NCBI GenBank assembly: GCA_043228905.1
Contig: JBHGNT010000001.1
Span: 18,848,001-18,912,000 of the forward strand
Origin: Azolla caroliniana
Taxonomy: Eukaryota > Plantae > Polypodiophyta
Length of the DNA stretch: 64,000 bases
Reading direction: 5' to 3'
The notes under the pieces are model-generated. The model did not search any database. It was not told the DNA's origin and saw only the letters and a list, made by a program, of their open reading frames with translations. Positions 1 to 54,200 of the stretch are shown in pieces. Each line of letters starts with the position of its first letter. Position 1 is the stretch's first letter. The position numbers and the translations under genes were made by a program.

Positions 1-804
1 ACAAATCAAACACTGGAGCAGTATCTGCGGTGCTTTCTCAACTATCATCAGAATGACTGGGCAGATATTCTTCAGTTCGCCGAATTTGCCTATAATAACG
101 CTATCCACGCATCGACTAAAGTCACGCCATTCTACGCTTATACGGGATATCATCCCCGGTGGTGTGTCCTTGAAACCCCAGAAGTGTCCACAAATCCTTG
201 CGCGGAGGATCGTTTGGAGCAGTTACGCAAGATACAAGCGGATTTATCTACTCAACTCCAGCAAGCTCAACAATCACACAAGGACTACGCAGATCGTCAT
301 CGACTTCCATCCAGTTTTAACATTGGAGATCGGGTGTGGCTGCTACGACGACACATCAAGACTACTCGCCCATGTGAGAAGTTGGATTATCGACGATTAG
401 GTCCTTTCCGTATTATCGGGAAGATTAATGATGTCGCTTTTCGTCTCGAGCTACCTCCGCAACTTCGGATACACCCGGTGTTTCATAGTTCTCTCCTCGA
501 ACCCTATCACGAGAGCACTATCCCAGGACGTACTATACAACCTCCACCTCCTATCGAGCTCGAAGATGGACCTGAGTATGAGGTCGCTGCCATCCTCGAT
601 TCCAAGATTGTTCGCAACAAGCTCTACTATCTAGTCGATTGGCTAGGATATAGTCCCAGCGAGCGTACTTGGGAACCGATCGAGAATGTGACCAATGCTC
701 GTGCTCTTCTAGAAGACTTCCATCGACGATATCCCGAGAAACCGGGTCCTCAATCCAAAACGACTCGTGAAACTCGTCGTTTTAAAGGGGGGATAGTGTC
801 ATAA
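1..804 (+). CDS. 3' end of Ty3/gypsy chromovirus (Tcn1-like) pol: integrase C-terminus, GPY/F motif and chromodomain; 5'-truncated by the window
   Basis: Frame is open from base 1 (TNQTLEQYLRCF...). Contains KLDYRRLGPF, IHPVFHSSLLEPY and the chromodomain EYEVAAILDS...YLVDWLGY...TWEP. The stop falls just inside the LTR. Confidence 0.93.
   Translation, partial: TNQTLEQYLRCFLNYHQNDWADILQFAEFAYNNAIHASTKVTPFYAYTGYHPRWCVLETPEVSTNPCAEDRLEQLRKIQADLSTQLQQAQQSHKDYADRHRLPSSFNIGDRVWLLRRHIKTTRPCEKLDYRRLGPFRIIGKINDVAFRLELPPQLRIHPVFHSSLLEPYHESTIPGRTIQPPPPIELEDGPEYEVAAILDSKIVRNKLYYLVDWLGYSPSERTWEPIENVTNARALLEDFHRRYPEKPGPQSKTTRETRRFKGGIVS
784..796 (+). promoter_or_regulatory. Polypurine tract of the Tcn1-like element
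   Basis: AAAGGGGGGATAG lies immediately before TGTCA (LTR start). Confidence 0.85.
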
Positions 805-1086
805 CTAGACTCGAACCCATAACCTTTTGTTACACGGGTCGAGACTTTACCATTAGGTTATGAGTTGTAATTTGAAGGATATTATTTTCATTTAGGTTTT
901 ATTAGGAAATTGATGTATATTCCAGATTTCTCTGGAACATTCTAGAAACTTCAGGAGTATTCCTGAAGACACTATAAAAGGAGGCGCAAGGCATTAGTTC
1001 GAACCAAATCGGTTCAACGCCAGTCTTAAGCCTTCTAACTACTGTTGTATATCTTCCGTCATATAATACATATATCTTTCGCATCA

Positions 1087-1124
<38 letters not shown>

Positions 1125-1257
1125 ACTCATTCCTTCTCTCAAAGTTCGACGCCTCTCATAGTACTAATCCTTCTCTGTCTTAGTACTATTCCCCAACAAT
1201 AGTACTAATCCTTCTTTTAGTACTAATTCCTTCTCTGCCTTAATAGAGTTCCTGACA
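797..1257 (+). repeat. 3' LTR of the Tcn1-like chromovirus (461 bp)
   Basis: TGTCA...TGACA termini, TATAAAA at ~973 and a (CT)n tract. Unrelated gypsy pol sequence resumes at 1258. The partner LTR is outside the window. Confidence 0.82.
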
Positions 1258-18484: not shown

Positions 18485-18507
18485 AGGAGGCGGCAGAAGA
18501 GCAGAAG

Positions 18508-30332: not shown

Positions 30333-31205
30333 TGTCGAGATATTACGCGAGTGCGTATGGAAAACGAGGCGGGACCGCGGGGGTCTCGAACCAAAGAGCA
30401 AGCGAGGGAGGAGAAAGGGAGAGAACCGGCTACGCAGGACCGGGAATACACAGGGACACGGCCCTTCAGCACGGAGAACGCGAACAGACACCGACACAGA
30501 CAGATGCTAATGACTAAGTATGTATATTAACAAAAATGGCTAACACGACTACAACCCTCGATGGGGCACAGGTTGGCTACAACTGAACAAGCCGGCGAAC
30601 AGATGCCGATGCTTGTTCGCTTCGACGCACAAAGGGGGGGGGGGGGTAGCAGGTCGGAGGTGCTGCCGGAAGCACTCGGGCATTCCTCGAAACAGCGCGA
30701 GCCTCCTCGGTACCCTGCACAGAAAGCTATGGAGCTCAAGAAGGAAGGAAACAGAGAGAGAAGCGTCCAGAAACGGTCCGGCAGCACTTCGTCCTCTCTT
30801 CGCCCGATGCCTGCAACAGCTCTTTCCTGCTCCTTATATATGCCGTCGAGCAGGCCCTCCAGTCAGCTTTATTCCCTGTCCCTTTTGGACAGGGATCCGC
30901 TCCGTCCTTCACGCATCCGCGTAGTTACGCCGCCGACTCGTACAGTTCCTTCGCTCGCGCGCGCGACCGAAAAGACTGTTCGCGCGGTCTTTGTCTCCAC
31001 TTGTGTTAGGGCCCGTTCCCGCCGATTATCCTCCTAATTCGCTTCTATGTACAACTCGGAGCGTGCGCGCGTGAAGAACCGGTTCCCACGCCTTGGTGCG
31101 CCGATTCCGCCTATGGACGGTTTTCTTCACGACATCCGCCCCCACCTAACCGCGCATCCTCCGGTATGCGCCAAGAGAGTTGGGACGGAGAAAACCGGCC
31201 CGTCT

Positions 31206-34200
31206 TCATTCCTCGCCCGTCGGTTCTTCCTCGTTTTCGGATCGTTCGTCACTGCTGACTAGGAGAGCCGGGTCTGGCTCGTCGTCGTGTCGCTTCTTGA
31301 ACACTTTGATCCGCTTCCCTGCAACCGGTATCGCCATTCTCGTGCCGTCTAGTTCCGCCAGGTGATAAGTCCCGTTGTCATTGGCGCTCCGCACCACGTA
31401 AGGCCCGAACCACCTTCGCGCGAACTTCCGTGTAGCTCGGTGCTGGTTGTCGAGGCTGCTGTCGTAGACGAGCACCCAGTCACCTTCGTCGATTTTCTTC
31501 GGTCGGAGCCGGTGCGTTCGGTCGAACCTGGCTTTGTTCTTTGTCCTCGCCACCCGGAGCTTCTCCGCAGCCAGTGCCACGTCCTCCGGTCTCCGCTCGA
31601 GCTGTCGTATACGTGCGGCCAACAACTCCTCCCGGCTCATCTCGTCTCTCCAGTCGACCGTTGCCCACGAGGAGATCGTCCGTTCTATCGGCATGATCGG
31701 CTTCTGGCCGAACATGAGCTCCGTCGGCATGTACCCGGTTACCGAACTGTGCGTGGTCCGGTTTGCCCACAAGGCATAAGGTAGCAGCCGCGGCCAGTTA
31801 CCGACTTGGCCTCCGCATGCTCGAACCAGCGCCTTGACGATCGGTCCGTGTCCGCGCTCCACCTTTCCATTCGCCTCCGGATTGTACGCAGTGGTGAGCG
31901 AGAGCTTGACTCCCAGCCGGTCGAACAGCTCCGCGGCTTCTTCGGCGTCCAACTCCCCTCGGTCAGCCACGATCTTCCCGACGCACCCGTACCGGCATAT
32001 CACGTCCTCGATTAGGAACCGACATACGGCCGCGGTCGTTTTGTTCGGAAGGGCCCGGCCTTCCACCTGGTTCGTCAGATCCTCCCGCGCTAGGACCAGG
32101 TACCGCATCTGTCCTACCCCCATTGGCATCGTCACCAGATCTACCATCCATTTGAAGTGGATGGTCGGAGGGTACGTAGGGTGAAGCTCGTCCCGGTGTC
32201 GGACCACGGAGTGCATCTGACAGCTCTCGCAAGTTGTCACTAATCGGTGCACGTCCCGGTACAGTCCCGGCCACTAGTACTTCTCCTTTATCTTCTCGAA
32301 CGTGGCCCAAGTTCCACGGTGTCCGGCCCAAGGGCTGTCGTGGTAGGCCGTCAGCAGCTCCTCCTGTTCTTCCTTCATCGCCACCACCCGGAGCGGAGCG
32401 CCGTCCCTCTTCTTCGGGTGCTTCCATAGATAGCCATCCCGGAGAAAGAACCGGTACGCTTTCTTCCGGATCCGGTTGGCCTCGTCTTTCGTCCATGACG
32501 CATCCGGCGCCATTGTCTTCAAGAACCCGCCGATCTGCAGCCACTCCCCGTCGTACTTGCTCGCGTCGAAGTCGTTAAGCGCCGGAGTGCTCGTCCCGTC
32601 GGTTGTCACGTATGCTGCCTCGAAGAAGTCCACGCCGACCTCTTCGTCCTCCGAAACCATGCCGCCCTCGTCATCGAACCTCGCCCTCGAAAGCATGTCG
32701 GCCATGGCGTTGTCTTTCCCGGAAATGTGTTGTATTTCCGGGTCCAGGGACTTGATGTACGCTATCCACCTGAGCATTGCCAGGTCCGGCGTCGCGCATC
32801 CGGAAACCATGCCGAGAATCGGCATGCAGTCCGTCTCTATGATTACCTCTGTCCCGATCAGATAGTCCTTGTCGGCCTTCACCGCCGAAACAATACCCCA
32901 GAGTTCGCGTTTAACCTGGGCGTATCCTCGCTGCCGCTCACTGAGGACCTTCGCGCCGAATCGGATCGGAAACCGATTGCCGTCCTCGTCTTCTTGGTTG
33001 ACGACCCACCCGATTCCGGTCGGACTCGTGTCAACCGTTATGTACACTGGGGTGCCCTTCCTGTAGACGGCCTTTCGGAGCGCCGGTGCTGTCGAAAGAG
33101 CCTCCTTCAGCTTCCGGACCGACTCCGTGTGCTTGTCTAGCCATTCGAATCTTCGCCCTTTCTTCAATAATCCGTACAGCGGCTCCGCGACGTGCGCGTA
33201 ATGAGGGATCCATATGTGGTAGAAGGCGCATGCTCCCAAGAATCTTCGTACTTCCGTGACCGAGCTGCAATCAGGCTTCATCGCGGAGATGGCTTCTACC
33301 TTTGCCGGAGACGGTTTCCGGCCATATGGTCCACATAAATGTCCGACCACCATGATTTCCGACTGCCCGAAGGCTGATTTCTCCCCCGAGAAGGTGAGCC
33401 TCGCAGCCTCTAGCCTTTGCAGCACCTTCTCGCAATCGTCGATGTGCATCGCCACGAATCGCCGGCATCCGTCCGGCCCGATCGTCTCGTCCCTATCCGC
33501 TACCGGGCATCCCTTGATCGGGATGTCGTCCAGAAACGGCATGGTGATGTCCGGGATGCAGTCCCTCAGAACCTTGTTCATCGCATTCACCATGTGGGCC
33601 ACCGAGTTGGTCCCTCCTTGCGGCAGCGTACACATCCGCACTAGGCCGAGGGGAGTTCGCATCGTCGTAATGTCTCTGCTCTCCACGGCTAGCTGGAACT
33701 GGTCGTACCCTGAGTATAGATCACCGACCGAGTAAATCGACCTTCCGGCGAAGGCCTCCGCGAACTCGTCTATGGTCGGTCCAATCCCTGCGTTCCGAAT
33801 GGTCACCTTATTGACCGGTTGCAGGTCCTGAATGAAGCGCAATGATCCGTTTTTCTTTGGTACGGTAAACCATCGATTTGAATACGGGGCGCTCGACGGT
33901 TCGAGAATGCCCATATCAACCTTCTGCTTCAACAGCTCCATCAACTTCGGGATGTGAGCTCTCGGAACTGGAATTGGCTTGAGATTCCACGGTACATGCG
34001 GTACCGTGAATATCACCATCGGCTCCACGATCGTCGGGTTTACGCACCCGATTTCCTCCGGTGAGAATGCGAAGGCTTTCCCGTGCCTTCCGAGCATTCT
34101 CCGAAACCGGTGTTCCTCCGCCGGTAGTAGGAACCCGTCCCCACCGATTTTGAGCTCCCGGAGCGTCTCGTTGGTGAAGGTGTGTCCTATACAGGCCGGA

Positions 34201-34688
34201 TCTCGTAAGCTGGGGTCCGATGCAACCCCTTTGATTCGCGACTCGCTGCCCTCCGGTAACGGTACCGCGACTGGCCTTACCTTCCGGTCCACAGTCTTGT
34301 ACTTGGTGCTTACTCGGGCCGTCCGATCCGACTCGAGCCCCCGACCAAAGTCCGCGATGACTTCGTACATTTCTTCGGAATATACCGGTATCGTCCGGTC
34401 TTCGTTAAGGTCTTCTTCGACTACCTTCCCCAGCATTCCCAAGGTGTCGTCGAAGGAGACCGCCTCCACGGCGCCACTGATTTCTTCGTCAGGGCCGAGA
34501 ACTCCGCACGCTCGGAGTCTCCCCTCCGTCTTTGTTTTCTCTCGGCCGGCGATGCCGACCATCGTACATGCTCCGCTGTCGGAGAAGCAAAATTTCCTAC
34601 CTATTGTACACGGTTTTATCGTACAGATGTGGGGTTTTCCCGGAGCATCCGGACTGTCGCGGCCCCACGCCTTGGCAGTCCTCTCTAA
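31206..34688 (-). pseudogene. A2 pol (RT-RH-INT), one premature stop at 32274-32276
   Basis: 762-aa and 348-aa ORFs in the same frame; TAG replaces the TGG seen in A1 (KYWW). Confidence 0.92.
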
Positions 34689-36807
34689 AAATCCTCTCGG
34701 TTTTCGGAACCGAGGGAGTCGCGGTTACGTTCGTGGTTCGGCCGTACCGTCAGAAACTGGACCGAATGGCGCCCGTCTTGGCTTTTGACCCTCGCGTAGG
34801 CCGAACCATTGTCCAGCACCTTGGTCTCCATTCGCGCCGCCGTGATGTACGGCTCTCCCAGTATGACCGGATGCGAAGACGTCTCCTGCACGAAGAAGTG
34901 CTGGTCAATCTCGACGTCGCCGATCTTGACTCGCACATTCGGACAGGCCCCGTGCAGTTCCTCGGTGGCGCGCGTTGCTGCCCTTATTTTCCACCCGTGC
35001 TTGGTGTTGATCGGCCACTTGCCCTTCTTATAGAAGTCCATGGACATCAAATTGATCTCCGATCCGTGGTCCACCAAAGCTATCACCGGTTCCTGGACAT
35101 CGCCGATCTTCACCGGGGTTTCCGTGGTCGCTCGGGCCCAGTGTGGTCTCGAATAGTGGCTTTCCGCCCACTCGTCTCCCAGCGCCATGTCGTCTAGGTG
35201 CGTCGTCCGCACTTCCACCGGTCTTTCCGGTTCTGTCTCCGTTGACAGCCTCTTCCGTTTCACCAAGTCCACGATGGAGTCGTGGAACTCCTTCTTGGCG
35301 ATTCCCAGCACCTCTCGTAACGACAGCTCCACCTTGCTGTCGAGGATCCGTTCCTCCAGGACCTTTCGTAAGTCCGTGGTCCTTTCTATCTCCGTCCCCA
35401 GACGGTACCCGCCCTTCTGGGGTTTATCTTGCGTACCGGCCCCGCCGGCTTCGTCCCGTCGTGGCCCGGACCGGGTCTCGTATCGTTGTGAGGGCCCGGT
35501 CGTCCCGGGTTTCCCCACCCGCTTCTCTTCTACCAGAGCCTCGTAGTTCTGGCAAGCGGCTTCCACGAAGCCCGTCTCTTCCTCGACCGGGTCGCTCCAC
35601 CCGGTCATCTCCCGTACCCGTTTCTCCGCACGGTCTGATTCCTCCCTTTTAAGCCTTGCACCGGCAAGGCCTTCCAGCATCGTCGGCCAGAATCCGGCTT
35701 TGCTTTCCCTTCGGGCCTCGCCCCGACTCGAATGCCGGCCGACGCCGAGTAGTGGACGGTTTCCGCGTGTCGGGCCGCCGCCTCTTCCATCAACCTTTTC
35801 ATACCACCTCGCCCGTCGTTTCGGCTCAGGACCCTTCGGGTGTCGCTGGCATGCACCCGTCCTTCCCACAGGTACACCACCCTGTTCCTCAGCGCCTCCG
35901 CGAAGTCGCCGCAGTCCTTCCGAATGTGGCCGACTTCATCGCACCACATGCACCTGTTTCCTGCCGCCGGCCGTCGGTCACGAGCCGGTTCGCCACCTTC
36001 CCTTCGGGCTTGCGCGATTTGGAGGTCCTTTATCGCCCTCGTCAATTCCTCCAGCGCCGCTCCTCCGGTTGAGCCTCTGACTACGCCGGTCGAAGCCGAA
36101 CCGGTTTCCAACCATTCCCGGGTCTCTTCCTTTCGCACCTGTGGCGCTGGTTCGAGCTTTTTTGCTGCGACCGAGCCCGACCCGGTTGCCCCGTTATCCG
36201 CCCATTCTCGCCGTTTGTCGAAACGGCCACAGACTTTCTTGACAGCCGCCCAGTCGGTAGTGAGCCCGTCTTCGGTTTCCAGCAAGAGGCCCACTTGCTC
36301 CCGATCCCGCTCGTCGACCGACTTGACAAACAGCAAGACCCGGCTCGTGTCCAGGATGGTTCGGTCGAGCGCCGAAAGGCGCGCAAAGTTTTCCTCGAAC
36401 TCCCGGAGGAGTGCCGACGCGTTTCTTCCCTTCCCCGGGGACTCCACCCATTCCATGAACCTTCGCTTCGAAAGCCGGAGCGCGTCGTCCAACCCGTATT
36501 TCTCTAGGAGCCGACCTTCGAACTCCTCCCAGGTACGGCTCTCCGCCCGCACCTCGAGCACCTCCGCATGGATGCTCGGCATCGCCACTCGGGGAAATCC
36601 GGCAAGACGCCTTTCTTCCGGAATGTCCCGCATCAGCATCTCTGCACCGTAGGACGCCAAATACTTTGTGGCATCCTTCCCATCGAACCGGCCGATCGTG
36701 CCGACGACCGCCTCAATGGCTCTGTCGAGGGCACCGGTGCCCTCGCGCGCGTTTACAATCCGGTCCACGGCCGAAGCCATGGCCTCTGCAAGATCCGACC
36801 CCCTCAT
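34685..36807 (-). pseudogene. A2 gag-protease, one frameshift near 35720
   Basis: Overlapping 409-aa and 394-aa ORFs; CCHC knuckle and LVDHGSEIN. Confidence 0.9.
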
Positions 36808-37937
36808 CTTCTGCTCTTCTGCCGCCTCTTTCACGTCGGGTTCACCAAAGATGTCGAGATATTACGAGAGTGCGTATGGAAAACGAGGCGGGACCGCGGG
36901 GGTCTCGAACCAAAGAGCAAGCGAGGGAGGAGAAAGGGAGAGAACCGGCTACGCAGGACCGGGAATACACAGGGACACGGCCCTTCAGCACGGAGAACGC
37001 GAACAGACACCGACACAGACAGATGCTAATGACTAAGTATGTATATTAACAAAAATGGCTAACACGACTACAACCCTCGATGGGGCACAGGTTGGCTACA
37101 ACTGAACAAGCCGGCGAACAGATGCCGATGCTTGTTCGCTTCGACGCACAAAGGGGGGGGGGGGGGGGGGGTAGCAGGTCGGAGGTGCTGCCGGAAGCAC
37201 TCGGGCGTTCCTCGAAACAGCGCGAGCCTCCTCGGTACCCTGCACAGAAAGCTATGGAGCTCAAGAAGGAAGGAAACAGAGAGAGAAGCGTCCAGAAACG
37301 ATCCGGCAGCACTTCGTCCTCTCTTCGCCCGATGCCTGCAACAGCTCTTTCCTGCTCCTTATATATGTCGTCGAGCAGGCCCTCCAGTCAGCTTTATTCC
37401 CTGTCCCTTTTGGACAGGGATCCGCTCCGTCCTTCACGCATCCGCGTAGTTACGCCGCCGACTCGTACAGTTCCTTCGCTCGCGCGCGCGACCGAAAAGA
37501 CTGTTCGCGCGGTCTTTGTCTCCACTTGTGTTAGGGCCCGTTCCCGCCGATTATCCTCCTAATTCGCTTCTATGTACAACTCGGAGCGTGCGCGCGTGAA
37601 GAACCGGTTCCCACGCCTTGGTGCGCCGATTCCGCCTATGGACGGTTTTCTTCACGACAGCGGCCTTGTGCGGACCTCATCGGGAACTGGAACACGAACA
37701 CCAACGGGAGTGAGTGGCCTTGTGCGGCCCTCATCGGGAACTGGAACACGAACACCAACGGGAGTGAGCGGCCTTGTGCGACCCTCATCGGGAACTAGAA
37801 CATGAACACGAACAGGAAAGAAACTAAAAAATAGAGACAATGAAGTGATGTTGATGATGGTACGGTGGCGATGGTAACTCTAGAAGCAAGGGCGATGACG
37901 GAGACGGGTGATGCTTCAAGTTGGAAGGTGAACAAAC

Positions 37938-42949: not shown

Positions 42950-43758
42950 TCACATGTCCGTTGGTCCTCCCGGACCCTTACCGGCCACATTCTCTCCGGT
43001 TACCGGCTTGCCGTCTCTGCCGTCTTCGTGGTTGCCGTCGGTCCTTTGCTCAAACGTGTTCTTAGGCATCGGTCCTCTATATGCCTTTAACCGGAATCCA
43101 TTCACCCATTTGCCCAGCACTTCGCCGGCAAGTGTCCCCAACTGGTAGGACCCATTATACTCCCGTGTTAGCCAATATGGTCCGGTCCATCTAAACCTTA
43201 GTTTACCCGGCATCTTGCCCATCCGGGTTTGGAATACTAGCACTGGTTTGCCAATTGCGAACATTTTTTCGTTACTTTTCCTGTGCCGGTCGACGAATGC
43301 TTTCCGTCGCCGTTGCTCTAATTCTAAATGTAGGATGTTGGCCAACCGTTGTTCCTCCAGCTCACACAGCGCTGTCAACCTTATTGTTTCCGACTCCTTC
43401 TCGTTCAGCCGTTCTCGTAGCTGAATCCGTAAGCTAGGTACTTGAAATTCTACCGGCATGACCGCCTCGAGTCCGAACGCCAACCGGAACGGTGTTGTTC
43501 GGATGCTCGTTTTGTATGCCGTCCGGTATGCCGAAAGCGCGCTATGTAGCTTTGTGTCCCAATCTGTCCGGTTCTCGTTGACGATCTTCCGAAGGATGTT
43601 CTGGAGCGTCTTGTTTGTTGATTCCGCTAATCCGTTCGCTTGTGGATAGTAGGGTGTGCTTCGTTTGTGGACCACGGCATAGAAGGTCGTTAGGCTTTCC
43701 ACCACTTGTCCGAGAAAGTGCCCCCCTTGGTCACTTATCAATTCAATGGGGCATCCGT
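42950..43758 (-). pseudogene. Gypsy B integrase core, 3' part
   Basis: ISDQGGHF, YYPQANGLAE, KLRFRWTGPY. Confidence 0.92.
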
Positions 43759-43824
43759 TGTCGTGAAGAATGTGCTTCACGATATAAAAATGAGCTTAAA
43801 TGTTGTATTTAATAATATTTGAGA

Positions 43825-44013
43825 GACTTGAACCCACATCCTTATATACGATGTACAATGTACATACCACTAGGCTAGGCTATTTATTTGTAAAAGTGTA
43901 TAATAAATGTGCTTCATGATATAAGAATGAAGCTATATATTGTATTAAGTAAAATTGAGGGACTTGAACCCTCAACCTTGTATATCAAGCACAAACCATA
44001 CACCACTAAGCTA
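43825..44013 (-). promoter_or_regulatory. Two tandem tRNA-type Pol III A/B-box modules in the A3 U3 (repeated in the 3' LTR)
   Basis: TAGCCTAGTGG with GGTTCAAGTC, and TAGCTTAGTGG with GGTTCAAGTC; both have a 43-nt A-to-B offset. Confidence 0.7.
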
Positions 44014-44270
44014 GGTTATTTGTTTTAAGGTTATATCCATCATTATACTTATCCCAATAAATGGGAGCTCAAATGAGCATGATGGCTATCATGCATCACA
44101 TGCAATGCATGTGCGCCAAATGGCGATCATGCATCAGATGTAACTCATGCATTACATGCATGACATTACCATATGCATGGAAATACTTATAAAAAGAGAG
44201 GAACGGAAAACAAAAGGGAATCAAGGAATCAAGAGAGAGTAAAAAAATAATACAATCAATTGAAGAAGAC

Positions 44271-44325
44271 TAGCTCATTGGGTGGAGAACCTCTCGTTTC
44301 GAAGTTGAGGTCGAGGGTTCAAATC
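44271..44325 (+). promoter_or_regulatory. Third A/B-box module in the A3 LTR, sense strand, downstream of the TATA box
   Basis: TAGCTCATTGG (44271) and GGTTCAAATC (44316), 45-nt offset. Confidence 0.65.
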
Positions 44326-44493
44326 AAGGGTCGGTATTGAAAAGATTCATCTTGCGATCAAGGATTGTAAAGTTGGTAAAATATTATATTTTTAATATAC
44401 ATCATGTTTATATCATATACTCTTGTTCTTTGAATCATACTTTGTCTCAATCTTCTTTCTTGAATCATACATTGTCTCTATCTTTTATCTATG

Positions 44494-44550
<57 letters not shown>

Positions 44551-44724
44551 TACTTGTAACTCTTCATCTTACTATCCTTAACCATTCTATCATCACCATA
44601 CAAGCCTTATTAAACTTAAGTTTCTTCAACTCCCCTTAACCTTAGTCCCCACGACTTCGCCGCACGAACCACAACTACCCCGACACATTTGGTGAACCCG
44701 ACGTGAAGGCGGCGACGAGGAGAA

Positions 44725-46839
44725 ATGGAGGAGCAAATGAGGCTTATGTGTACGATGATGGAACGAGTGATGCGGGAACAAGGGATGATGGCAAGCATCG
44801 ACAAAGCCGTCGACAATATTCTCGCACGAGTAGGAATCTTCGAAGGTATAAATTTAACAAGATTTCTGAAGATTTATAATGAAGAAATGCTTAAACGCGG
44901 TGTCGACGAAGCTACAAAAATTAATAGCTTTAGTCGAGTCGCTGCGATTGGGCTACAAGAGAAGATCCAAGAGCTCCAAAGGGAGAATCATACATGGACA
45001 ACATTCGAAAGGGCATTACTCAATGAATACAACCTCAACGATATGTCAAGGATGACAAGGCGAGCTTTCATGGATTGGGTAGAGTCTAATAAACATTTAA
45101 GTGTTTTGGAAGTATTAAAAGAGTTTTCTGAAAGATTTGAGCAACTAAATGTTAGAGATAGAAATATAATAGTGCCAGATAAAGTAATATTGTTTCTACA
45201 AGCTACTAATATTAAAGACAGGAAGGACTTGGGAATGCTTTTAGAAGATCAGAATAGTCCAAGTGGACTTACCGAAGATTGGGAGGAGGTGAAAAGGGCG
45301 TGCGCCCATTTCTGCAAAAGAAAGTTATGGTTTATGGATTTGCCCGACAGAAATGAGGAAGAAACGGGGAACGAGTCGGGAGAAAAGAAAGTAGAAGAAT
45401 CAGTCTTACACGAATTAGTGAAAGGCATGAAAGACTTGTCGATCAAAGTGACGAAGCTAGAATCGGGACAAAGCTCGACTTCGTCAAGGCAAGGAGGTGG
45501 AATGGTCCGAAGGTGTATGTGGTGTGATAGTATCGACCACCAGAAGAAAGATTGTCAAGAGCATAGGGATGCTCTTAATCATAATAAAATCTACTATCAA
45601 GATGGCAAGATTCACTCAACTGAGACTCGACAACCACTTCAACTCAACTTCGGGCGAGGAGGAATGAAAAAGCTAATGGAAGATGCCGAGAGAGAAACGA
45701 CTCAAGCGATACAATCCGTGGCAACCTTAGGATTGCACGTAGAAGACTCATATGGTGGATCTGGCTTTTGGCAAGATGTGATGGATTATGCAAGAAAAGG
45801 GAAGGTTCGAGTGGATGAATTAAAAAGAGCGGGAGATGAAATACGAAACTTCACTGGATGGAATGATCCAGTAGACGCGCTATCAGCATTCGCCCAAGTG
45901 AATGCACAAGATGTGCTAGTGGAAGAGAAGCGGAAGAGAGCTGAGGAAGCTGATCCGACAAAGAGACATGAGACACGAGAACAAAAGAGAAGGGAGATGG
46001 AAAAGGGTGCTATTGAGCCGAAGGAAGCTGATAAAGTAAAAGGAAAGACAGGCCCATCTTTCAAGCTTGCCTCAGACATAGAAACAACGACGGATATAAA
46101 AAAGGTACTAGAAACAAGAATATTAAATAGTAAGGTAGAATTTACTTTAAGAGAAGTGTTGGGTATAGCAAAGAAAGAATTTCATGAAGTTATCATAGAT
46201 ATTATTAGAAGGAAGAGACAGGTGACGGAGGAAATTACGGGAGGGTGTGCAACAACACTCCAAGATTTGTATGGTGGCACCATCAATGCTGCAAGTGTAA
46301 AAAACCAGAATGATGTTGGCGTCCATGAAGGGGACAGGAGTCACTATACAAGGGACCATTGGGCTCGAGCAACAACGGAGGCACCTGCAAAAATTGGGGA
46401 GCAGCAAATTCCATGTATTGCTTTGATTGATCATGGATCAGAGATTAACATGATGTCATCGGAATTTTACACTCGAGGACGATGGCCGATCGACAAGAAT
46501 CATGGGTGGAAAATAAGAGCTGCCACAGAAACTACGGAGGATCTATTCGGAGCATGTCCTAGTGTGAAGGTAACAATTGGTGATGTCTCGGTGAATCAAA
46601 ATTTCTTTGTGCAGGATCGATCAACCTACCCCGTCATCCTTGGCTAGCCCTACATCACCGCAGTGAGGATGGAAACAAAGGTTATTGATGATGGTTCGGC
46701 TTTCGCGAGAATCAAGAGTCAAGATGGAAGAAAGACTGTCCAATTCTTAACCGTGAGGCCCAACCATGAAAGAAACAAAGAATGCTTGAGGGAACATCCA
46801 ATTCAAGAGATGGATGAAGAGTTTTCCCAGGATTTTTAG
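44725..46839 (+). CDS. A3 gag-protease (single premature TAG at 46645-46647)
   Basis: CMWCDSIDHQKKDC and LIDHGSEIN. The frame continues after the stop to ...FSQDF*. Confidence 0.88.
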
Positions 46840-49800
46840 ATAGGGCTTTTACAGGTAGGGGCTGTGATAGCCCGAGCATAAAAGAAAACCCCATAAATAA
46901 TAATGTAAATAAAGATATTCCTTGTACAATCTCATCTAATGGTGCTACTTTTATACTAAAAGTAAATAATAAAAAAATACAAAATGCTTTCGAGTACTTT
47001 AAGTGTTCTGGATTAATAGATGATGATGAAGAAATTCAGGATATGTTTGAAGAATTAAGTTTTGAAGATACAATAACTCATTTGGAAGCAATGGAAGAAG
47101 ACAACGAAATCCAAGTTCCTGTCCATTCAATCAAGATGTATGAGGTCATTGAAGAAGTTGCTCGAAAGGATCATGAAGCACATGTACTAACAAAATACAA
47201 GACAGTGGAGAAGAAGGTTCGTCCTATTGCCGCTCCACTTCCAGGGGATAGTGAAAAGGCAATCAAAGAAGCAGCCACAGAGCCAATGATCAGAGACCCA
47301 CGAAAGGTAGGACATGTGTTTACTCCGGAAACAATACAAGGGATGAAAATAGGAGGGGGTGACTTCCTATTACCCGCTGAAGAAAAGCAGTTCAGGGAGA
47401 TGTTAAAAAGGCATGGAAAGGCGTTTGCATTCCAACCGGAGGAAATAGGGTGTGTGGATCCAGAAATTGTGGAGCCCATGGTTATATTCACTATCCCTCA
47501 TATTCCATGGAACTTTAAGCCAATACCCATGCCTAGGGCTAGAATCCCTCAACTATTAGAACTTTTGAAAGAAAAGATAAGGATGGGTATCTTGGAACCA
47601 TCGAACGCTCCTTACTCGAGTCGATGGTTCACTGTGTTAAAGAAAGATGGGCGACTCCGATTTATCCAAGATATGCAACCCGTGAATAAGGTAACAATCC
47701 GAAACTCGGGAGTAGGGCCAATTGTGGATGAGTTTGCTGAGATGTTTGCAGGAAGAGCTATATATTCAATGGGAGACCTTTATTCTGGATATGATCAATT
47801 TCAACTTGCTATCAAAAGTCGAGATATAACTTCTATCAAGACACCTATAGGGTTAGTACGGATGTGCACCTTGCCGCAAGGAGCGACCAACTCAGTGGCG
47901 CATATGATGAATGGAATGAACAAGGTACTTCGTGATTTTATTCCTCATATTACAATGCCTTTTCTAGATGATGTTCCAATTAAGGGATGCAAGGAGGAAG
48001 AGAAGAACGAGGAATTGGACGAAAGTGGTTGCCGTCAATTCGTTGCTGATCATATCAAGGATTGTGAGAAGGTGCTATCAAGGATGGAAGAAGTGCATTT
48101 GACCTTATCAGGGGCGAAGTCAATATTTGGGGCAAAAGAGATATTAATAGTTGGTCATATGTGTGGCCCGTATGGGAGAAAGCCATCCCCAACCAAGGTC
48201 AATGCAATTCAAAATATGCAAGAGGAATGTACATCCATCTCAGAAGTACGAAGGTTTCTGGGGGTATGTGTTTTTTACTGTAAATGGATTCCGCATTATG
48301 CCCATTTATCTGAACCTTTATATAGACTCCTAAGAAAAGGAGAGACATTTGAATGGAGTGAAGAGCATTCAGAGGCAATGAAGAAATTGAAGTACTACTT
48401 GGCACAAGCTCCACCATTAAAGCAACCAGACTACACCCGGCCCATATATCTCACAGTAGACTCTAGTCCCATTGGAATTGGATGGGTGATAAGCCAACAA
48501 GATAGGGAAGAAAGGTATCCAGTCCGATTCGGGGCAAAGGTTCTTAGTGGTCGACAAAGAAAATATGCACAGGTGAAAAGAGAGCTATGGGGGATAGTAA
48601 CAGCTGTAAAGACAGACCGAGATTACTTAATTGGTGCTGAAGTAATAATAGAAACTGATTGTTTGCCTATTCTGGGTATCATAGCTAATTGTGATATTCC
48701 AGATCAAGCCATGTTAAGATGGTGTATCTATATTAGATCAATCAACCCTGAAGTTCGACATATCTCTGGGAATAGAAATGCAGTAGCAGATATGTTATCA
48801 AGAGCAAGGTATGAGGAAGAGGAGATTCCAGACTCGGACGATGAGGACAAAGAACAAACAGTCCTTACCACAAGCATTACTCGGGAAGGAGGAATGCAGT
48901 TTCTAGAAGAGGAGTATGAAGATGAATTCAAGGAAATAGGGAAATACCTACAAACCCCTAACAAGTACAAAGGTCGATCTGGAAAAGAGTTCGCACAGTT
49001 TCGCAAGAAAGCCCATAAGTTCTTCCTGTATGAAGGATATCTATGGCGACATCCGAAAACCAAGACTGGAAACCCGCAAAGAGTAATAGGTTCTGAAGGG
49101 CAAAGAAAGGAGATAATCAAAGAGCTGCATGACAAAGAATGGGCTGGTCATCGAGGAGTGTGGGCCACTTTCAGTAAGATTAAAGAACGATTTTGGTGGC
49201 CTCGATACTATGAGCAAATAAAAAAGTATGTGGAAACTTGTCCCACTTGTCAATATTATTCAAATGTAAAATTTTGTGATGAATTACACCCAACATACTC
49301 ACCGGGAGTGCATTACAAGTGGATGATAGATTTGGTAACAATGCCACTTGGAGTAGGACAAAAGAGATACTTAGTTCTTGCTAGAGAAGATCTAACAAAT
49401 CAAGTGGAAGGTCGTTCATTGAGAACAAAAGGGACATTAGGAGTATGTCAATTCATCTTGGAGGACATTGTTTGTAGATATGGATGTATCGGGAAGATAG
49501 TGGCAGATAGGGGAGAACTCAATTCTGCGGAAGCTCAAGATTTTTTCGACAAAATAGGAATTCGGCTTTCTTTGACAACGGCGTACAATCCAGAAGCTAA
49601 TGGAAAGGTAGAAAGGGGACATGGGCCAATAGTCAAAGCTTTGGCAAAGGCATGTAGAGGACGGGTTAGTGATTGGCCAAAAACCTTACCCTATGCACTA
49701 TGGGCTGATAGGACAACTCACAGCACTGTTACTGGATATATGCCTGCAGAATTAATCACAGGACAGAAGCCAATAATGCCAATTGAAGAAAAGATAACTA

Positions 49801-50294
49801 CATGGGTTGTGTTGCCTTGGGAATCAGAAATGAGTAGGGAAGATTTACTTGCGGTTCGAATACGACAACTTCAATCAAGGATAGAAGACATAGAAAAAGC
49901 AGCTACTAGATTGAAAGAGGCAAGAATCAAGAATAAGGACAGATTTGACAAGATGAAAAGAATACGACCAAGAAAGGTGCAAGAGGGAGATTGGGTATTA
50001 GTATATGATAATAGCCTAGATAATCAATACAGTACTATTCGGAAGTTTGCAAAAAGATGGTTTGGACCTTATGAAGTTAGGAAAATAACAGATAAAGCCA
50101 CATATTTCCTCAATGAATTAGATGGGACAGAAATTTGTATCCCAATTGCAGGAAAAAGGATTAAAATATTTAAAAGGAGGGAGTCATTAGAGCCTGAATT
50201 TTATGAAGAAGTAGAAGAACTAAAAGAATCGGAAGAAGTGTTGGATGAACTCTGCACAACCAATGTGCAAGTTCAGAGGGGGTGGGTGTCGTGA
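46836..50294 (+). CDS. A3 pol (RT, RNase H, integrase), uninterrupted, in the -1 frame relative to gag
   Basis: 1083-aa ORF from 47043; the frame is open back to the slippery site at 46830. PFLDD, TVDSSPIG, NPEANGKVERGH. Confidence 0.95.
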   Translation, partial: LDRAFTGRGCDSPSIKENPINNNVNKDIPCTISSNGATFILKVNNKKIQNAFEYFKCSGLIDDDEEIQDMFEELSFEDTITHLEAMEEDNEIQVPVHSIKMYEVIEEVARKDHEAHVLTKYKTVEKKVRPIAAPLPGDSEKAIKEAATEPMIRDPRKVGHVFTPETIQGMKIGGGDFLLPAEEKQFREMLKRHGKAFAFQPEEIGCVDPEIVEPMVIFTIPHIPWNFKPIPMPRARIPQLLELLKEKIRMGILEPSNAPYSSRWFTVLKKDGRLRFIQDMQPVNKVTIRNSGVGPIVDEFAEMFAGRAIYSMGDLYSGYDQFQLAIKSRDITSIKTPIGLVRMCTLPQGATNSVAHMMNGMNKVLRDFIPHITMPFLDDVPIKGCKEEEKNEELDESGCRQFVADHIKDCEKVLSRMEEVHLTLSGAKSIFGAKEILIVGHMCGPYGRKPSPTKVNAIQNMQEECTSISEVRRFLGVCVFYCKWIPHYAHLSEPLYRLLRKGETFEWSEEHSEAMKKLKYYLAQAPPLKQPDYTRPIYLTVDSSPIGIGWVISQQDREERYPVRFGAKVLSGRQRKYAQVKRELWGIVTAVKTDRDYLIGAEVIIETDCLPILGIIANCDIPDQAMLRWCIYIRSINPEVRHISGNRNAVADMLSRARYEEEEIPDSDDEDKEQTVLTTSITREGGMQFLEEEYEDEFKEIGKYLQTPNKYKGRSGKEFAQFRKKAHKFFLYEGYLWRHPKTKTGNPQRVIGSEGQRKEIIKELHDKEWAGHRGVWATFSKIKERFWWPRYYEQIKKYVETCPTCQYYSNVKFCDELHPTYSPGVHYKWMIDLVTMPLGVGQKRYLVLAREDLTNQVEGRSLRTKGTLGVCQFILEDIVCRYGCIGKIVADRGELNSAEAQDFFDKIGIRLSLTTAYNPEANGKVERGHGPIVKALAKACRGRVSDWPKTLPYALWADRTTHSTVTGYMPAELITGQKPIMPIEEKITTWVVLPWESEMSREDLLAVRIRQLQSRIEDIEKAATRLKEARIKNKDRFDKMKRIRPRKVQEGDWVLVYDNSLDNQYSTIRKFAKRWFGPYEVRKITDKATYFLNELDGTEICIPIAGKRIKIFKRRESLEPEFYEEVEELKESEEVLDELCTTNVQVQRGWVS

Positions 50295-51025
50295 AGAATG
50301 TGCTTCACGATATAAAAATGAGCTTAAATGTTGTATTTAATAATATTTGAGAGACTTGAACCCACATCCTTATATACGATGTACAATGTACATACCACTA
50401 GGCTAGGCTATTTATTTGTAAAAGTGTATAATAAATGTGCTTCATGATATAAGAATGAAGCTATATATTGTATTAAGTAAAATTGAGGGACTTGAACCCT
50501 CAACCTTGTATATCAAGCATAAACCATACACCACTAAGCTAGGTTATTTGTTTTAAGGTTATATCCATCATTATACTTATCCCAATAAATGGGAGCTCAA
50601 ATGAGCATGATGGCTATCATGCATCACATGCAATGCATGTGCGCCAAATGGCGATCATGCATCAGATGTAACTCATGCATTACATGCATGACATTACCAT
50701 ATGCATGGAAATACTTATAAAAAGAGAGGAAAGGAAAACAAAAGGGAATCAAGGAATCAAGAGAGAGTAAAAAAATAATACAATCAATTGAAGAAGACTA
50801 GCTCATTGGGTGGAGAACCTCTCGTTTCGAAGTTGAGGTCGAGGGTTCAAATCAAGGGTCGGTATTGAAAAGATTCATCTTGCGATCAAGGATTGTAAAG
50901 TTGGTAAAATATTATATTTTTAATATACATCATGTTTATATCATATACTCTTGTTCTTTGAATCATACTTTGTCTCAATCTTCTTTCTTGAATCATACAT
51001 TGTCTCTATCTTTTATCTATGCTCG

Positions 51026-51077
<52 letters not shown>

Positions 51078-51217
51078 ATACTTGTAACTCTTCATCTTAC
51101 TATCCTTAACCATTCTATCATCACCATACAAGCCTTATTAAACTTAAGTTTCTTCAACTCCCCTTAACCTTAGTCCCCGCGACTTCGCCGCACGAACCAC
51201 AACTACCCCGACACCGT

Positions 51218-54200
51218 AACGGCACCAGATGTACTCATATAGAAACTTTGCCGTTGACGCAGCGGTGTTATCCCGTAAAGCTTTGGCCTCCACGCATTTC
51301 GTGCAATAATCCGTAGCAACGATAACGTACCGATTACCCGTTCTCATTGCCGGTGGCTTGAACGGTCCTACAAAGTCCAGCCCCCACTTTTGGAATGGCT
51401 CGAGTGGTAGTACCGGCTGGTGTGGCATACAAGCCTGCTCCGTTGGCTGGCCCATTCTCTGGCATAGGTCACATTCTTTTGCGTACCGTACCGCATCTCT
51501 TAATGTCGTTGGCCACCATAGGCCACTTTGCCATATTTTTCTGGCTGTCGCATCTCCAGCATAGTGACCTCCGGCAACTCCGCAGTGAGCTTCCCTCAAT
51601 ATCAGTTCCTTTTCATCGCTGCGCACCGCCCGTCTCCATATGCCGTCAGCTCCCTTGTGGTACAGTGTGTCTTGCAGTAAGCAGAAATGTCGGCTTTGTA
51701 CCGCCAGGCGTTTTCGTTCGTCCCGGTTCAGCTCTTCCAGAGGCAGTCCTGTGCTCAGAAACTGATGCATATTTGTGAGCCACTTGTCTTCCTGGGCTAC
51801 TGTCTCATCTGCTGCCGTCTCCGTAGTGACTCGAAACAGCTCCGCATTCGGAAACTCATCCGGTATTTCGTCACCCGTCTCTCCGGACTCCAATCGGCTT
51901 AAGTAATCTGCTACGGCATGCTGTATACCGGGTCGGTGAAATATTTCAAACTCGAACTCCTGGAACAGTAAGGTCCACCAGGCCAATTTGCCGGTGAGTG
52001 ATGCCTTGGACACCAGGTAAAGGAGTGTTGAATGATCTACATGGAAGGAAAACTTCCTTCCCAATAAATAGTGCCGAAACTTTGTCACACTGTAGATCAT
52101 TCCTAGAGCTTCCCGTTCCGTAGTAGAGTAGTTCCGTTCTGCTTGGGATAGCTTCTGGCTGGCATAGTACACTGGCCGGTACCACTTTGGTTCCGTAAGC
52201 TGCATCAGTATGCTTCCGATTGCGATGTCAGGAAAACTTCCTTCCCAATAAATAGTGCCGAAACTTTGTCACACTGTAGATCATTCCTAGAGCTTCCCGT
52301 TCCGTAGTAGAGTAGTTCCGTTCTGCTTGGGATAGCTTCCGGCTGGCATAGTACACTGGCCGGTACCACTTTGGTTTCGTAAGCTGCATCAGTACGCTTC
52401 CGATTGCGATGTCGGAGGCGTCCACGAACACGTGAAATTCTTTACTCCAATCTGGAGGTTGTACTACCGGTGCCTGCGATAATAGTACCTTGAGGGCCTT
52501 ATACGCCCTATCCTCAGTATCGGTCCACTGGAATGGTGTCCGATGTACGGTGGCATGCAACGGTGTAGCCAAGTCGGCCAAGTATCAGAGCAGCCGGCTG
52601 TGCCACCGGATCTGGCCTAAGAACCGGCTCAATGCCTTTGCCGTTGCCGGCGCCGGTGCTTCTAATATGGCTTTCACTTTGTCCGGGTCGACTGCTATAC
52701 CTTCCTGGCTTACGATATGTCCTAATAAAGTTCCACTGGACACGCCAAATACACACTTTGCCGGATTCAAGCTTAGCCGGTACGCTCTACACTTTTCTAG
52801 ACAAAGACGGAGATGCTGAAAATGGTCCTCCTCCCGGCAATAGACAGCGAAATCGTCAAGGAAAACCTGCATAAAAGCCGGTATATATTCACCAAAGTTT
52901 CCATGATGATTCTTTGAAACGTTGCCGGTGCTGTTTTGAGTCCGAACATCATCACCACGGCCACAAACACCCCTCATTCGGTGACGAATGCCGTTTTCTC
53001 TTGGTCGTCGGGGTGCATCCGGATCTGATTATATCTGCTGAATCCGTCTAGGAAGCTATAGACCTCATGGCCGGTGACGGCATCCAACACTCCATCTGTG
53101 AACGGAAGTGGAAATGCATCTGTTACCGTAGCCGCATTGAGTTTCCGGTAGTCCACGCAAACTCGAATTTTTCCGTTCTTCTTCGGTACGACTACGATCG
53201 GGCTCAGCCATGTCGCTTTCTTTACCGGACGGATAAAGCCAACTCTTAGCAGTTTGTCGATTTCTTCCTTGACCTTGGCAGCATAATTGGGATTCATTCG
53301 GTACCGTCTTTGTGCCACTGGTTTTGTGTCTTTGCTCAAGTGCACTTGATGCTGGTATAACTGAGGGTCGAGTCCTCGCATGTCTTCGTATGACCAGGCG
53401 AATACGTCGTGAAATTCCGTGAGAAGTGTTATCATCGCCGTTTTGTCTCCGGACTTCATCTCCTTGGCGATGTGCACCGGTTTTGCTTCGTCCGTGGTGC
53501 CTAAATTCACCTCTTCCAATTGCGATGCTTTCACACGCTGTGAAACGGCCATTTCCCGTTCCAATGCTTCCTGCGCTTGCCGTAACTCCCGGATTGCGTC
53601 TTTATCCGGTTCTGCTTCCGCCTCTTCCGGTTGCGGTAAGTACGGTGCTATAGCTTCGGCAATGTCAATTTCGAAGAGGGGTATGATCTTCGGGTTTTCC
53701 TGCAGGTATTGAGCTTCTTCTTCGTCTGCTAACCCTTCGAGCATGTTGACGCATTCCGCATACAACGGTGTACATTCCTTGCCAGTGCGCGTCCTTGGCT
53801 ATGTTGGTACCCGTACCTTGGCTTTTCCTTGCCGGAAGGTAAAATTATATTTTTTCGCCAATTCTGTTTAATATGTGCCATTTTCAACCATGGCCGCCCC
53901 AGCAATAGTGGGTATGCGCCTTGTGCCTGTAATTGTAGCACTACGGCCGAGATGTGAAATGTATGCCCGCCGACGGTGACTTCTAATTTCCGTATTAATC
54001 CTGTCAGCCGCACTGAGCTTGTATCGACCATCTGCAACCAGAATGGACACAGCTCCCACTCGTGGATTCCTAGGTCCTCACACGTTCGGAGGCTTATTAC
54101 ATTTACCCCAGAGCCTCCGTCTATAACTGTGTCGAGGAGTTCTTTCCCTTTTACAATGGCAGTGATTACCGGACTGCTGGTGTCTACCATTGTTGGTCCC

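What the first reader, a model, noticed from the sequence alone, without database searches (positions are those of the whole stretch)
43770..44330. A3 LTR carries three tRNA-type Pol III promoter modules, two antisense and one sense
Seen: two diverged ~136-bp U3 tandem units each retain an A box (TAGCCTAGTGG, TAGCTTAGTGG) and a B box (GGTTCAAGTC) on the - strand with the same 43-nt offset. Unit 2 has a perfect 7-bp T-arm-like hairpin (TTGAGGG TTCAAGT CCCTCAA). A third module (TAGCTCATTGG...GGTTCAAATC) lies on the + strand downstream of the TATA box. The sequence between boxes has drifted while boxes and spacing are kept. Known: A/B boxes bind TFIIIC, tDNAs act as chromatin barriers in yeasts, and Cassandra TRIMs carry 5S Pol III promoters in their LTRs. 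Inference: tRNA-derived TFIIIC sites are used as insulators, enhancers or antisense promoters in a near-autonomous gypsy.
Basis: partly seen in the sequence, partly recalled or inferred. Interest (0 to 1): 0.75.

Follow-up and report, generated by a model that had tools for sequence, protein, structure and literature searches.

The report
Plant retrotransposons carry tRNA promoter boxes
Many related protein-coding plant jumping genes keep stripped-down tRNA-gene promoter boxes, without the tRNA fold, around the main promoter in their end-repeats, where these boxes likely bind the host factor TFIIIC and would help keep that promoter open in silenced chromatin.

Summary
The 928-bp LTRs of a young Phygy-like gypsy element (43759-51214) each carry two antisense and one sense A-box/B-box module; 3 seen against at most 1 in 3,000 shuffles. 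The feature is lineage-wide: 11 of 30 related families with LTR sequence carry such modules (43 hits in 75 kb of LTR, 2 in 375 kb shuffled, 1 in 286 kb internal DNA), and so does an unrelated chromodomain element in this window. Family variants avoid the boxes (3/44 vs 32/146 sites, p=0.015). The modules are not primer-tRNA copies, show no shared SINE body and cannot drive the T-run-rich 7.4-kb RNA. Best reading: TFIIIC/TFIIIB platforms flanking the Pol II promoter, likely as barrier or opener; no binding or RNA data. Most families (18 of 30) lack them. Closest known: Helenus TRIMs (Kojima 2024), which are non-coding. The scan noted tRNA-type boxes in fungal chromovirus LTRs on other DNA (e1-10420520, unreviewed). 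New variant of a known kind.

The parts
43759..51214 (+). Ty3/gypsy LTR retrotransposon A3, Phygy-like, 7,456 bp, inserted into another retroelement
   Evidence: LTR pair, TG...CA ends, TSD; Pfam RT, RNase H, integrase, DUF4100, no chromodomain
43755..43758 (+). Target-site duplication CCGT (NCGN), repeated at 51215-51218
43759..44686 (+). 5' LTR, 928 bp, 5 mismatches and no gaps to the 3' LTR
43769..44025 (+). U3 tandem duplication, period 136, 1.9 copies; some family contigs show joints consistent with one or three units
   Evidence: joints skipping 139-145 or going back 127-136
43824..43877 (-). Module 1 (antisense): A box 43877-43867, AGGA at 44-47 (family variants have AGGT), B box 43834-43824
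43786..43790 (-). T5 run, predicted Pol III terminator of module 1 (about 94-nt RNA if transcribed)
43960..44013 (-). Module 2 (antisense): A box 44013-44003, AGGT 43978-43975, B box 43970-43960; T-arm-like hairpin not conserved elsewhere
43951..43954 (-). T4 run after module 2 (weak predicted terminator; about 66-nt RNA if transcribed)
44090..44179 (.). Array of 8 CATGCA/TGCATG motifs (RY-type; label recalled) between module 2 and the TATA box
   Evidence: 8 seen, 0 of 20,000 mononucleotide shuffles reach 8
44187..44195 (+). TATA-like box, predicted Pol II core promoter of the LTR
   Evidence: sequence
44271..44326 (+). Module 3 (sense): A box 44271-44282, AGGT, B box 44316-44326; first T run (T5) at 44389
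44690..44707 (+). Primer-binding site, tRNA-Trp type
   Evidence: weak Rfam RSV_PBS match, E 6.2; same motif within 2 mismatches in many loci
44707..46647 (+). gag-protease frame ending in an in-frame TAG at 46645-46647; the same frame runs on to 46839
46818..50294 (+). pol (RT, RNase H, integrase), open, overlapping the gag-pro frame in the -1 frame
50275..50286 (+). Polypurine tract
50287..51214 (+). 3' LTR with the same three modules (A-box starts at 50405 and 50541 on minus, 50799 on plus)
797..1257 (+). 3' LTR of an unrelated chromodomain gypsy element carrying one antisense module (A box 860-850, B box 817-807)

Best explanation
The LTRs of this plant gypsy lineage carry tRNA-gene promoter skeletons (A box, AGGT at 44-47, B box, tRNA spacing) that are conserved as DNA sequence while the tRNA stems are lost, and they likely bind TFIIIC and position TFIIIB on either side of the element's predicted Pol II promoter, where they would act as a barrier or opener against silencing. 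Shown: presence, enrichment in LTRs, box conservation, loss of stems, and the layout [antisense module] - about 80 bp - [CATGCA array] - [TATA] - 75 to 130 bp - [sense module]. Inferred: TFIIIC binding (the kept bases are those that TFIIIC reads in yeast), TFIIIB loading and short outward Pol III transcripts (the A box and T runs are kept), and the benefit to the element. The genomic RNA itself is predicted to be a Pol II product. The modules were probably captured from tRNA genes or SINE heads more than once and spread by U3 duplication and LTR exchange.
For: Leave-family-out profile: 43 hits in 74,957 bp of LTR segments, 2 in 374,785 bp shuffled, 1 in 286,180 bp internal; 11 of 30 families. 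With the distance left free (25-110 nt), 23 of 34 exact B cores in LTR segments have an A box at 43-45 nt, against 0 of 23 B cores in internal DNA; AGGT precedes 20 of 34 against 1 of 23. In 31 non-redundant modules G18, G19, G53, T55, A58 and C61 are invariant, while Watson-Crick pairs are 35/124 (D stem), 41/155 (anticodon stem) and 24/93 (variable T-stem pairs), no more than column permutations. Variants at 10% or more in four runs (three organism labels) fall on 3 of 44 box sites and 32 of 146 other sites, one-sided Fisher p=0.015. In 15 homologous module pairs, mismatch is 0.15 (A), 0.13 (AGGT), 0.09 (B) against 0.30 in each of spacer, upstream and downstream. Yeast TFIIIC contacts G47 upstream of the B box, G45 affects binding, 32 bp is the commonest A/B gap (the gap here), and the A box is needed for TFIIIB loading but not for TFIIIC binding (PMC11724288, passages). 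T4 or longer lies within 40 nt downstream in 14 of 20 antisense modules (A4 in 1 of 20; 36% of background 40-mers) and inside 0 of 20. Distance from antisense A box to first CATGCA: median 81, SD 19 nt in 13 LTRs, against SD 70 to the LTR start. An unrelated chromodomain element has the same module.
Against: No binding, chromatin or RNA data. 18 of 30 families show no module, and 1 more (L002/L003, 80% integrase identity, the closest family after L001) only a degenerate sense one; two other Phygy-type LTR pairs in this window have none. The modules are therefore dispensable. Module-bearing U3 blocks are homologous among some families, so the 11 families are perhaps 7 independent blocks, and the spacing may reflect descent. 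The pair comparison is biased because both members were found by their boxes. TFIIIC tolerates 31-93 bp between boxes, so the strict 43-45 spacing, and Y33 (30/31) and A38 (23/31) outside the profile, are not explained by TFIIIC binding alone. G52A and C62T variants of module 2 have matching frequencies in all four runs, as a compensated RNA pair would. The module-2 terminator is only T4, shorter than the 5-6 median for Arabidopsis tDNAs (PMC7544208, passages). A plant review's passages show tDNA/TFIIIC barriers for yeast and animals only (PMC9540200).
Confidence: 0.5

Rival explanations
1. The modules are small Pol III genes whose products matter: 66-130-nt non-coding RNAs, mostly antisense to U3, that tune silencing or act as decoys, as the Pol III cassettes in foamy-virus U3 do. 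The promoter reading is the same as in the best explanation, but the RNA is the selected product.
For: A box, optimal spacing and downstream T runs are kept (14/20 antisense). Y33 and A38 conservation and the matched G52A/C62T frequencies could be RNA-level. The chromovirus module folds well (z -3.07, 0 of 200 shuffles). Precedent: PMC3993851 (passages).
Against: No shared fold or sequence in the predicted RNAs: stems at chance level; A3 modules fold no better than shuffles (z -1.77, 0.66, -1.62); 52-62 pairing does not covary across families; sense modules mostly lack a near terminator (4/11).
Confidence: 0.17
2. Neutral relics: tRNA genes or tRNA-derived SINE heads fell into AT-rich LTRs several times, were carried along by duplication and LTR exchange, and look conserved only because all tRNAs share these bases and the search selects for them.
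For: Patchy presence on the integrase tree; absent from 18 of 30 families; both orientations; Y33, A38, AGGT and the exact spacing are generic tRNA features; hits are ascertained by their boxes.
Against: Neutral decay should erode boxes and stems together, yet boxes are near-invariant while stems are random. Variants among copies, which were not selected for boxes, avoid box sites (p=0.015). No shared body or tail downstream of the B box (information at most 0.56 bits at 62-81). The only direct repeats around A3 modules come from the tandem unit or are 8 nt of A-rich sequence. All 7 window hits lie in LTRs.
Confidence: 0.17
3. Mobile landing pads or tethers: TFIIIC/TFIIIB on the LTR attract Pol III-targeting elements or tether copies to tDNA-rich nuclear sites, as proposed in an earlier unreviewed note for fungal chromovirus LTRs.
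For: Same motif class as in note e1-10420520; the window is a dense nest of retroelements.
Against: The two A3 LTRs are collinear without inserts. None of the loose ends shown upstream of module 2 begins like an LTR end (24 of 619 rows shown). Being a target gives no evident benefit that would conserve the boxes.
Confidence: 0.07
4. The antisense modules act in the genomic RNA, pairing with the primer tRNA to aid minus-strand transfer, as reported for a tRNA-Lys3-like sequence in HIV-1 U3-R.
For: 20 of 31 modules are antisense and lie in U3. Precedent seen only as a citing passage and reference title in PMC6468702.
Against: The primer implied by the PBS has T52, A62, T59 and C50; antisense modules match these in 0, 0, 1 and 0 of 20. 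11 modules are sense and cannot pair with a tRNA.
Confidence: 0.04
5. Cassandra/Helenus-type use: the sense module is the Pol III promoter for the element's own genomic RNA.
For: A sense module lies downstream of the TATA box in families 0, 3 and 8, and as a B-only hit in family 10.
Against: First T5 is 63 nt after the B box; 24 runs of T4 or longer (5 of T5 or longer) lie on the sense strand; the RNA must be translated; most modules face outward.
Confidence: 0.03

Closest known systems
Helenus (tRNA-derived TRIMp3; Kojima 2024, PMC10886601; parts 1-4 of 6 read, supplements not seen)
   Same: tRNA-like sequence inside LTRs, conservation limited to boxes A and B, unlikely to give a functional tRNA, no role in priming, probable SINE or tRNA capture.
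   Different: Helenus elements are non-coding, 311-1263 bp, and thought to be Pol III-transcribed; the only plant case is in Selaginella. Here the carriers are 7.4-kb gag-pol elements with one to four modules per LTR, mostly antisense, around a TATA box. The paper argues that autonomous partners must use Pol II promoters. It also says that 'not a few LTRs' in Repbase hold part of a tRNA but analysed only TRIMs under 1 kb.
Cassandra and Ajax TRIMs (as described in PMC10886601)
   Same: Small-RNA-gene promoter kept inside an LTR.
   Different: 5S-derived (A, IE, C boxes), non-coding; in Cassandra the promoter makes the element's own RNA.
Trypanosomatid tRNA-like elements upstream of U2 snRNA genes (PMC4950102; abstract and section 20 read)
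   Same: A degenerate tRNA-like A/B module at a near-fixed distance (104 bp) upstream of another transcription unit, itself transcribed into a short RNA and needed for the neighbour's transcription.
   Different: There the neighbour is a Pol III snRNA gene in a host chromosome; here it is a predicted Pol II LTR promoter, and no function is tested.
Foamy-virus U3 Pol III cassettes (PMC3993851, passages)
   Same: A/B-box Pol III units with T terminators in the U3 of a coding retroelement.
   Different: Those give structured pre-miRNAs; here no fold is conserved and most units are antisense.
tDNA/TFIIIC barriers and ETC sites of yeasts and animals (PMC11724288, PMC9540200, PMC7544208; passages)
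   Same: TFIIIC sites next to silenced chromatin.
   Different: Host loci, not carried by a retrotransposon; ETC sites work without TFIIIB, whereas these modules keep the A box; the passages read give no plant demonstration.
Phygy clade of non-chromovirus Ty3/gypsy (Neumann et al. 2019, PMC6317226; passages and one supplement row)
   Same: 4-bp NCGN TSD, tRNA-Trp PBS, no chromodomain, polyprotein fills the interior.
   Different: 200 bp below the listed size range; the passages and row read do not mention tRNA-like LTR modules.

Membership tests
Phygy (non-chromovirus Ty3/gypsy) | 4-bp TSD with NCGN preference | tested here: met
   CCGT on both sides; 4 of 5 loci with a delimited 5' LTR have an NCGN left flank; definition
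Phygy (non-chromovirus Ty3/gypsy) | PBS for tRNA-Trp (81% of members) | tested here: met
   PBS 44690-44707 aligns to the RSV PBS model, weak hit E 6.2; that RSV uses tRNA-Trp is recalled
Phygy (non-chromovirus Ty3/gypsy) | No chromodomain or extra ORF; polyprotein spans the interior | tested here: met
Phygy (non-chromovirus Ty3/gypsy) | Length 7,656-9,968 bp | tested here: not met
   7,456 bp; the range is descriptive, from 186 elements of the clade defined in Physcomitrella
Phygy (non-chromovirus Ty3/gypsy) | RT/RH/INT phylogeny with REXdb Phygy references | not testable with these tools
   No REXdb here; best named protein hit is Riccia sorocarpa at 63%. Filed as Phygy-like only.
Helenus / TRIMp3 | tRNA-derived sequence in the LTR with conserved boxes A and B | tested here: met
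Helenus / TRIMp3 | Short non-coding TRIM | tested here: not met
   7.4 kb with gag-pro and pol
Helenus / TRIMp3 | Element RNA made by Pol III from the LTR promoter | tested here: inconclusive
   Not measured; 24 T4+ runs on the sense strand and outward orientation argue against
tRNA gene | Cloverleaf stems; ARAGORN or Rfam call | tested here: not met
   ARAGORN calls module 1 only at 80% of its threshold, as an undetermined type
tRNA-derived SINE insertion | Shared body and tail, flanking TSD, copies outside LTRs | tested here: inconclusive
   No shared body, no convincing TSD, all 7 window hits in LTRs, but 4 of 8 extra locus hits lie outside delimited LTRs; no whole genome was held
Type 2 Pol III promoter | A box, B box, 31-93 bp gap, downstream T run | tested here: met
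   terminator of module 2 is only T4
Type 2 Pol III promoter | Plant upstream TATA-like and CAA elements | tested here: inconclusive
   Upstream 40 nt is 76% A+T in antisense modules but U3 is AT-rich; CAA was not counted
Type 2 Pol III promoter | TFIIIC/TFIIIB/Pol III occupancy and transcript | not testable with these tools
   Needs ChIP and RNA data
tDNA-type chromatin barrier | Blocks spread of silencing in a B-box-dependent way | not testable with these tools
   Needs a reporter assay

The most novel reading that the evidence does not exclude
Coding LTR retrotransposons of non-seed plants, in at least two unrelated gypsy lineages, have repeatedly turned tRNA genes into fold-less TFIIIC/TFIIIB modules that bracket their Pol II promoter and shield it from heterochromatin: an element-borne Pol III insulator, and a ready, high-copy test of whether tDNA-type barriers work in plants.
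Probability: 0.3. Interest if true: 0.8.

Novelty: new variant of a known kind. Interest (0 to 1): 0.56.

Why it matters
LTR elements that sit in dense retroelement nests must keep a Pol II promoter usable in silenced chromatin. If they borrow the host's TFIIIC machinery for this, it is a DNA-only anti-silencing route, and it spreads thousands of potential TFIIIC sites through the genome. It would extend small-RNA-promoter capture from non-coding TRIMs to coding elements, where the promoter cannot be for the element's own RNA. Sister families with and without modules give natural controls for the open question of tDNA/TFIIIC barriers in plants.

Tried and rejected
No whole genome was held, so copy number and modules outside LTRs could not be surveyed. 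No RNA holder was listed; this says nothing on expression. Viral contigs gave no relatives; genome contigs gave one locus, L081, probably plant DNA in a bacterial bin. ARAGORN and Rfam at gathering score found no tRNA (on 57 of 81 loci, 70 on 12 loci). A conserved cloverleaf or T-arm was tested and rejected (only the acceptor stem showed a weak Watson-Crick excess, 71/217, p=0.022 uncorrected). Primer-tRNA pairing was rejected (one search had the PBS offset by one base and its primer counts are not used). The integrase tree is the quick version, the careful search did not finish, and 5 of 82 rows were left out for frame breaks; I draw no count of origins from it. The landing-pad idea was checked only in the window and in the loose ends shown. 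Rows dropped: 4 hits with a negative A-box score and near-duplicates (4 or fewer mismatches) were removed from the 43 hits to give 31 modules. One search showed only 40 of 151 variant rows and is not used for the test; one search showed all 38. Loci are collapsed metagenome contigs and may be chimeric. Literature searches that found no report of such modules in coding plant LTR elements; subscription papers, Repbase entries and the Helenus supplements were not seen. The HIV-1 primary paper was not held.

Full report
The element. Window 43759-51214 is a young Ty3/gypsy element: 928-bp LTRs with 5 mismatches and no gaps, TG...CA ends and a CCGT duplication; gag-protease and pol with RT, RNase H and integrase and no chromodomain; one in-frame TAG in the protease region where L001 and L002 are open. 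A 4-bp NCGN target and a tRNA-Trp PBS are the marks listed for Phygy (PMC6317226, passages and one supplement row). It is 200 bp under the listed size range and I could not place it against reference sequences, so I call it Phygy-like. The host is a land plant, probably non-seed: the best named protein hit is from the liverwort Riccia at 63%, and unreviewed notes on this genome call it fern-like.

The observation. Two antisense modules (A boxes starting at 43877 and 44013, offset 43 to the B box) lie in a 136-bp U3 duplication, and one sense module (44271, offset 45) lies 84 nt after the TATA box. Of 3,000 dinucleotide shuffles of the LTR, one had a single module and none had more. None is a tRNA gene: Rfam gives 21.2 bits against a cut-off of 29 and ARAGORN nothing at its default. 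The hairpin of module 2 forms but is not exceptional.

Relatives. An integrase alignment fetched 80 metagenome loci (the best 80 of 199 confirmed; 55-96% identity) and one more from genome contigs. With the window element they form 34 families at 85% nucleotide identity, 30 with usable LTR segments. A plain pattern scan allowing 38-62 nt between boxes already returned modules at tRNA spacing in 13 of 81 loci. A profile trained without the family being scored gave 43 hits in 74,957 bp of LTR segments, 2 in 374,785 bp of shuffles and 1 in 286,180 bp of internal DNA; 11 of 30 families carry modules. A twelfth (L002/L003) has a degenerate sense copy and 18 have none. A scan of all 432,743 bp of loci at a lower threshold added 8 hits, 4 of them outside delimited LTRs. 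In the window all 7 hits are in LTRs: six in A3 and one in the 3' LTR of an unrelated chromodomain element at 797-1257. Module-bearing families are scattered on a quick integrase tree, and U3 blocks are shared between non-sister families, for example 72% over 331 nt between A3 and L024. This points to LTR exchange, or to chimeric contigs, and means that the 11 families are perhaps 7 independent blocks.

What is conserved. In 31 non-redundant modules the kept positions are T8, G10, A14, T16, G18, G19, the base after G19, A44-G45-G46-T47 and G52-G53-T54-T55-C56-R57-A58-N-Y60-C61; the D, anticodon and T stems pair no better than permuted columns, and nothing is shared past position 62. With the distance left free, 23 of 34 B cores in LTR segments have an A box at 43-45 nt and 20 have AGGT; in internal DNA the figures are 0 and 1 of 23. 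Contigs of four runs from three organism labels, laid on the two antisense units, show variants of 10% or more at 3 of 44 box sites and 32 of 146 other sites (p=0.015); two spacer variants move toward the shared motif (T47, T33). In 15 homologous pairs the boxes differ at 9-15% and everything else at 30% (biased by how pairs were found). Yeast TFIIIC reads the B box and also G47, a G45 change alters binding five-fold, 32 bp is the commonest gap, and the A box matters for loading TFIIIB rather than for TFIIIC binding (PMC11724288, passages). The kept pattern therefore fits a full TFIIIC-TFIIIB platform read as DNA. Antisense modules have a T run within 40 nt downstream in 14 of 20 cases and never inside; sense modules in 4 of 11.

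Layout. In A3 and several other families the order is antisense module, about 80 nt, an array of CATGCA motifs (RY-type, label recalled), TATA box, then 74-129 nt to a sense module. The gap from the antisense A box to the first CATGCA has median 81 and SD 19 nt in 13 LTRs, against SD 70 nt to the LTR start (not independent). CATGCA arrays also occur in module-free families, so the array is the general promoter part and the modules are an addition at its borders.

Mechanism. The element's RNA cannot be a Pol III product: 24 T runs lie on the sense strand, the first 63 nt after the sense B box. The modules do not copy the primer tRNA and share no SINE body. I take as most likely (0.5) that TFIIIC and TFIIIB sit on both sides of the Pol II promoter and keep it open or bounded, with short outward RNAs as a by-product. 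Rivals: functional small RNAs (0.17), neutral relics (0.17), landing pads (0.07), primer pairing (0.04), own Pol III promoter (0.03). That the boxes are kept by selection as DNA sites is better supported (about 0.75, my estimate) than any one use of them. Unexplained: the strict spacing, Y33 (30/31) and A38 (23/31), which lay outside the profile, and the matched frequencies of G52A and C62T. Against any essential role: most families lack modules.

Comparison. Helenus TRIMs carry tRNA-derived boxes in their LTRs but are short and non-coding; the paper notes that other Repbase LTRs hold tRNA pieces and did not analyse them (PMC10886601, parts 1-4 of 6). Functional analogues are the tRNA-like element upstream of trypanosomatid U2 genes (PMC4950102, abstract and section 20), foamy-virus U3 Pol III cassettes (PMC3993851, passages) and yeast and animal tDNA barriers (PMC9540200, PMC7544208, passages). 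Searches, and passages of PMC7466625 and PMC3286476, gave no report of such modules in coding plant LTR elements. The scan has unreviewed notes of tRNA-type boxes in fungal chromovirus LTRs and none on this LTR.

Verdict. A real, lineage-wide and probably selected feature; a new variant of a known kind, with its use untested. Interest 0.56.

Noticed in passing
window 1-1257: 3' end of a chromodomain gypsy element (Pfam Chromo E 3e-15) whose LTR (797-1257) begins with an antisense tRNA-type module; it folds better than 200 of 200 shuffles.
   Followed up: partly
window 44090-44179: Eight CATGCA/TGCATG motifs just upstream of the TATA box; similar arrays occur in many related LTRs with or without modules. 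The RY/B3-factor label is recalled.
   Followed up: partly
window 43759-44220 vs L011 7143-7274, L024 3704-4037, L038 1014-1094: A3 U3 is 72-84% alike to LTRs of families with only 65-67% integrase identity but not to L002/L003 (80%): LTR exchange between families, or chimeric contigs.
   Followed up: partly
window 43970 and 43960: Variants G52A and C62T of module 2 have matching frequencies in four runs (6/8, 10/10, 44/45, 33/32%), like a compensated pair or a linked haplotype.
   Followed up: no
window 46645-46647 and 46818-46839: In-frame TAG in the protease region of this copy; gag-pro and pol overlap by 22 nt in the -1 frame, a possible frameshift site.
   Followed up: partly
L042 12010-12075: A strong antisense module (score 33) inside copia-like flanking DNA, starting a few bases after TGTCA as in the chromovirus LTR; may be another LTR family.
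   Followed up: no
L005 3 LTR and L048 3 LTR: Local duplications of the AGGT-B-box half give extra B-only sites next to full modules.
   Followed up: no
window 17831-24805 and 30333-37665: Two more Phygy-type elements (pol about 65% alike to A3 at DNA level) whose LTRs carry no module.
   Followed up: partly
L081: A Phygy-like integrase (58%) in a contig titled as a cyanobacterial genome bin; probably plant DNA in the bin.
   Followed up: no
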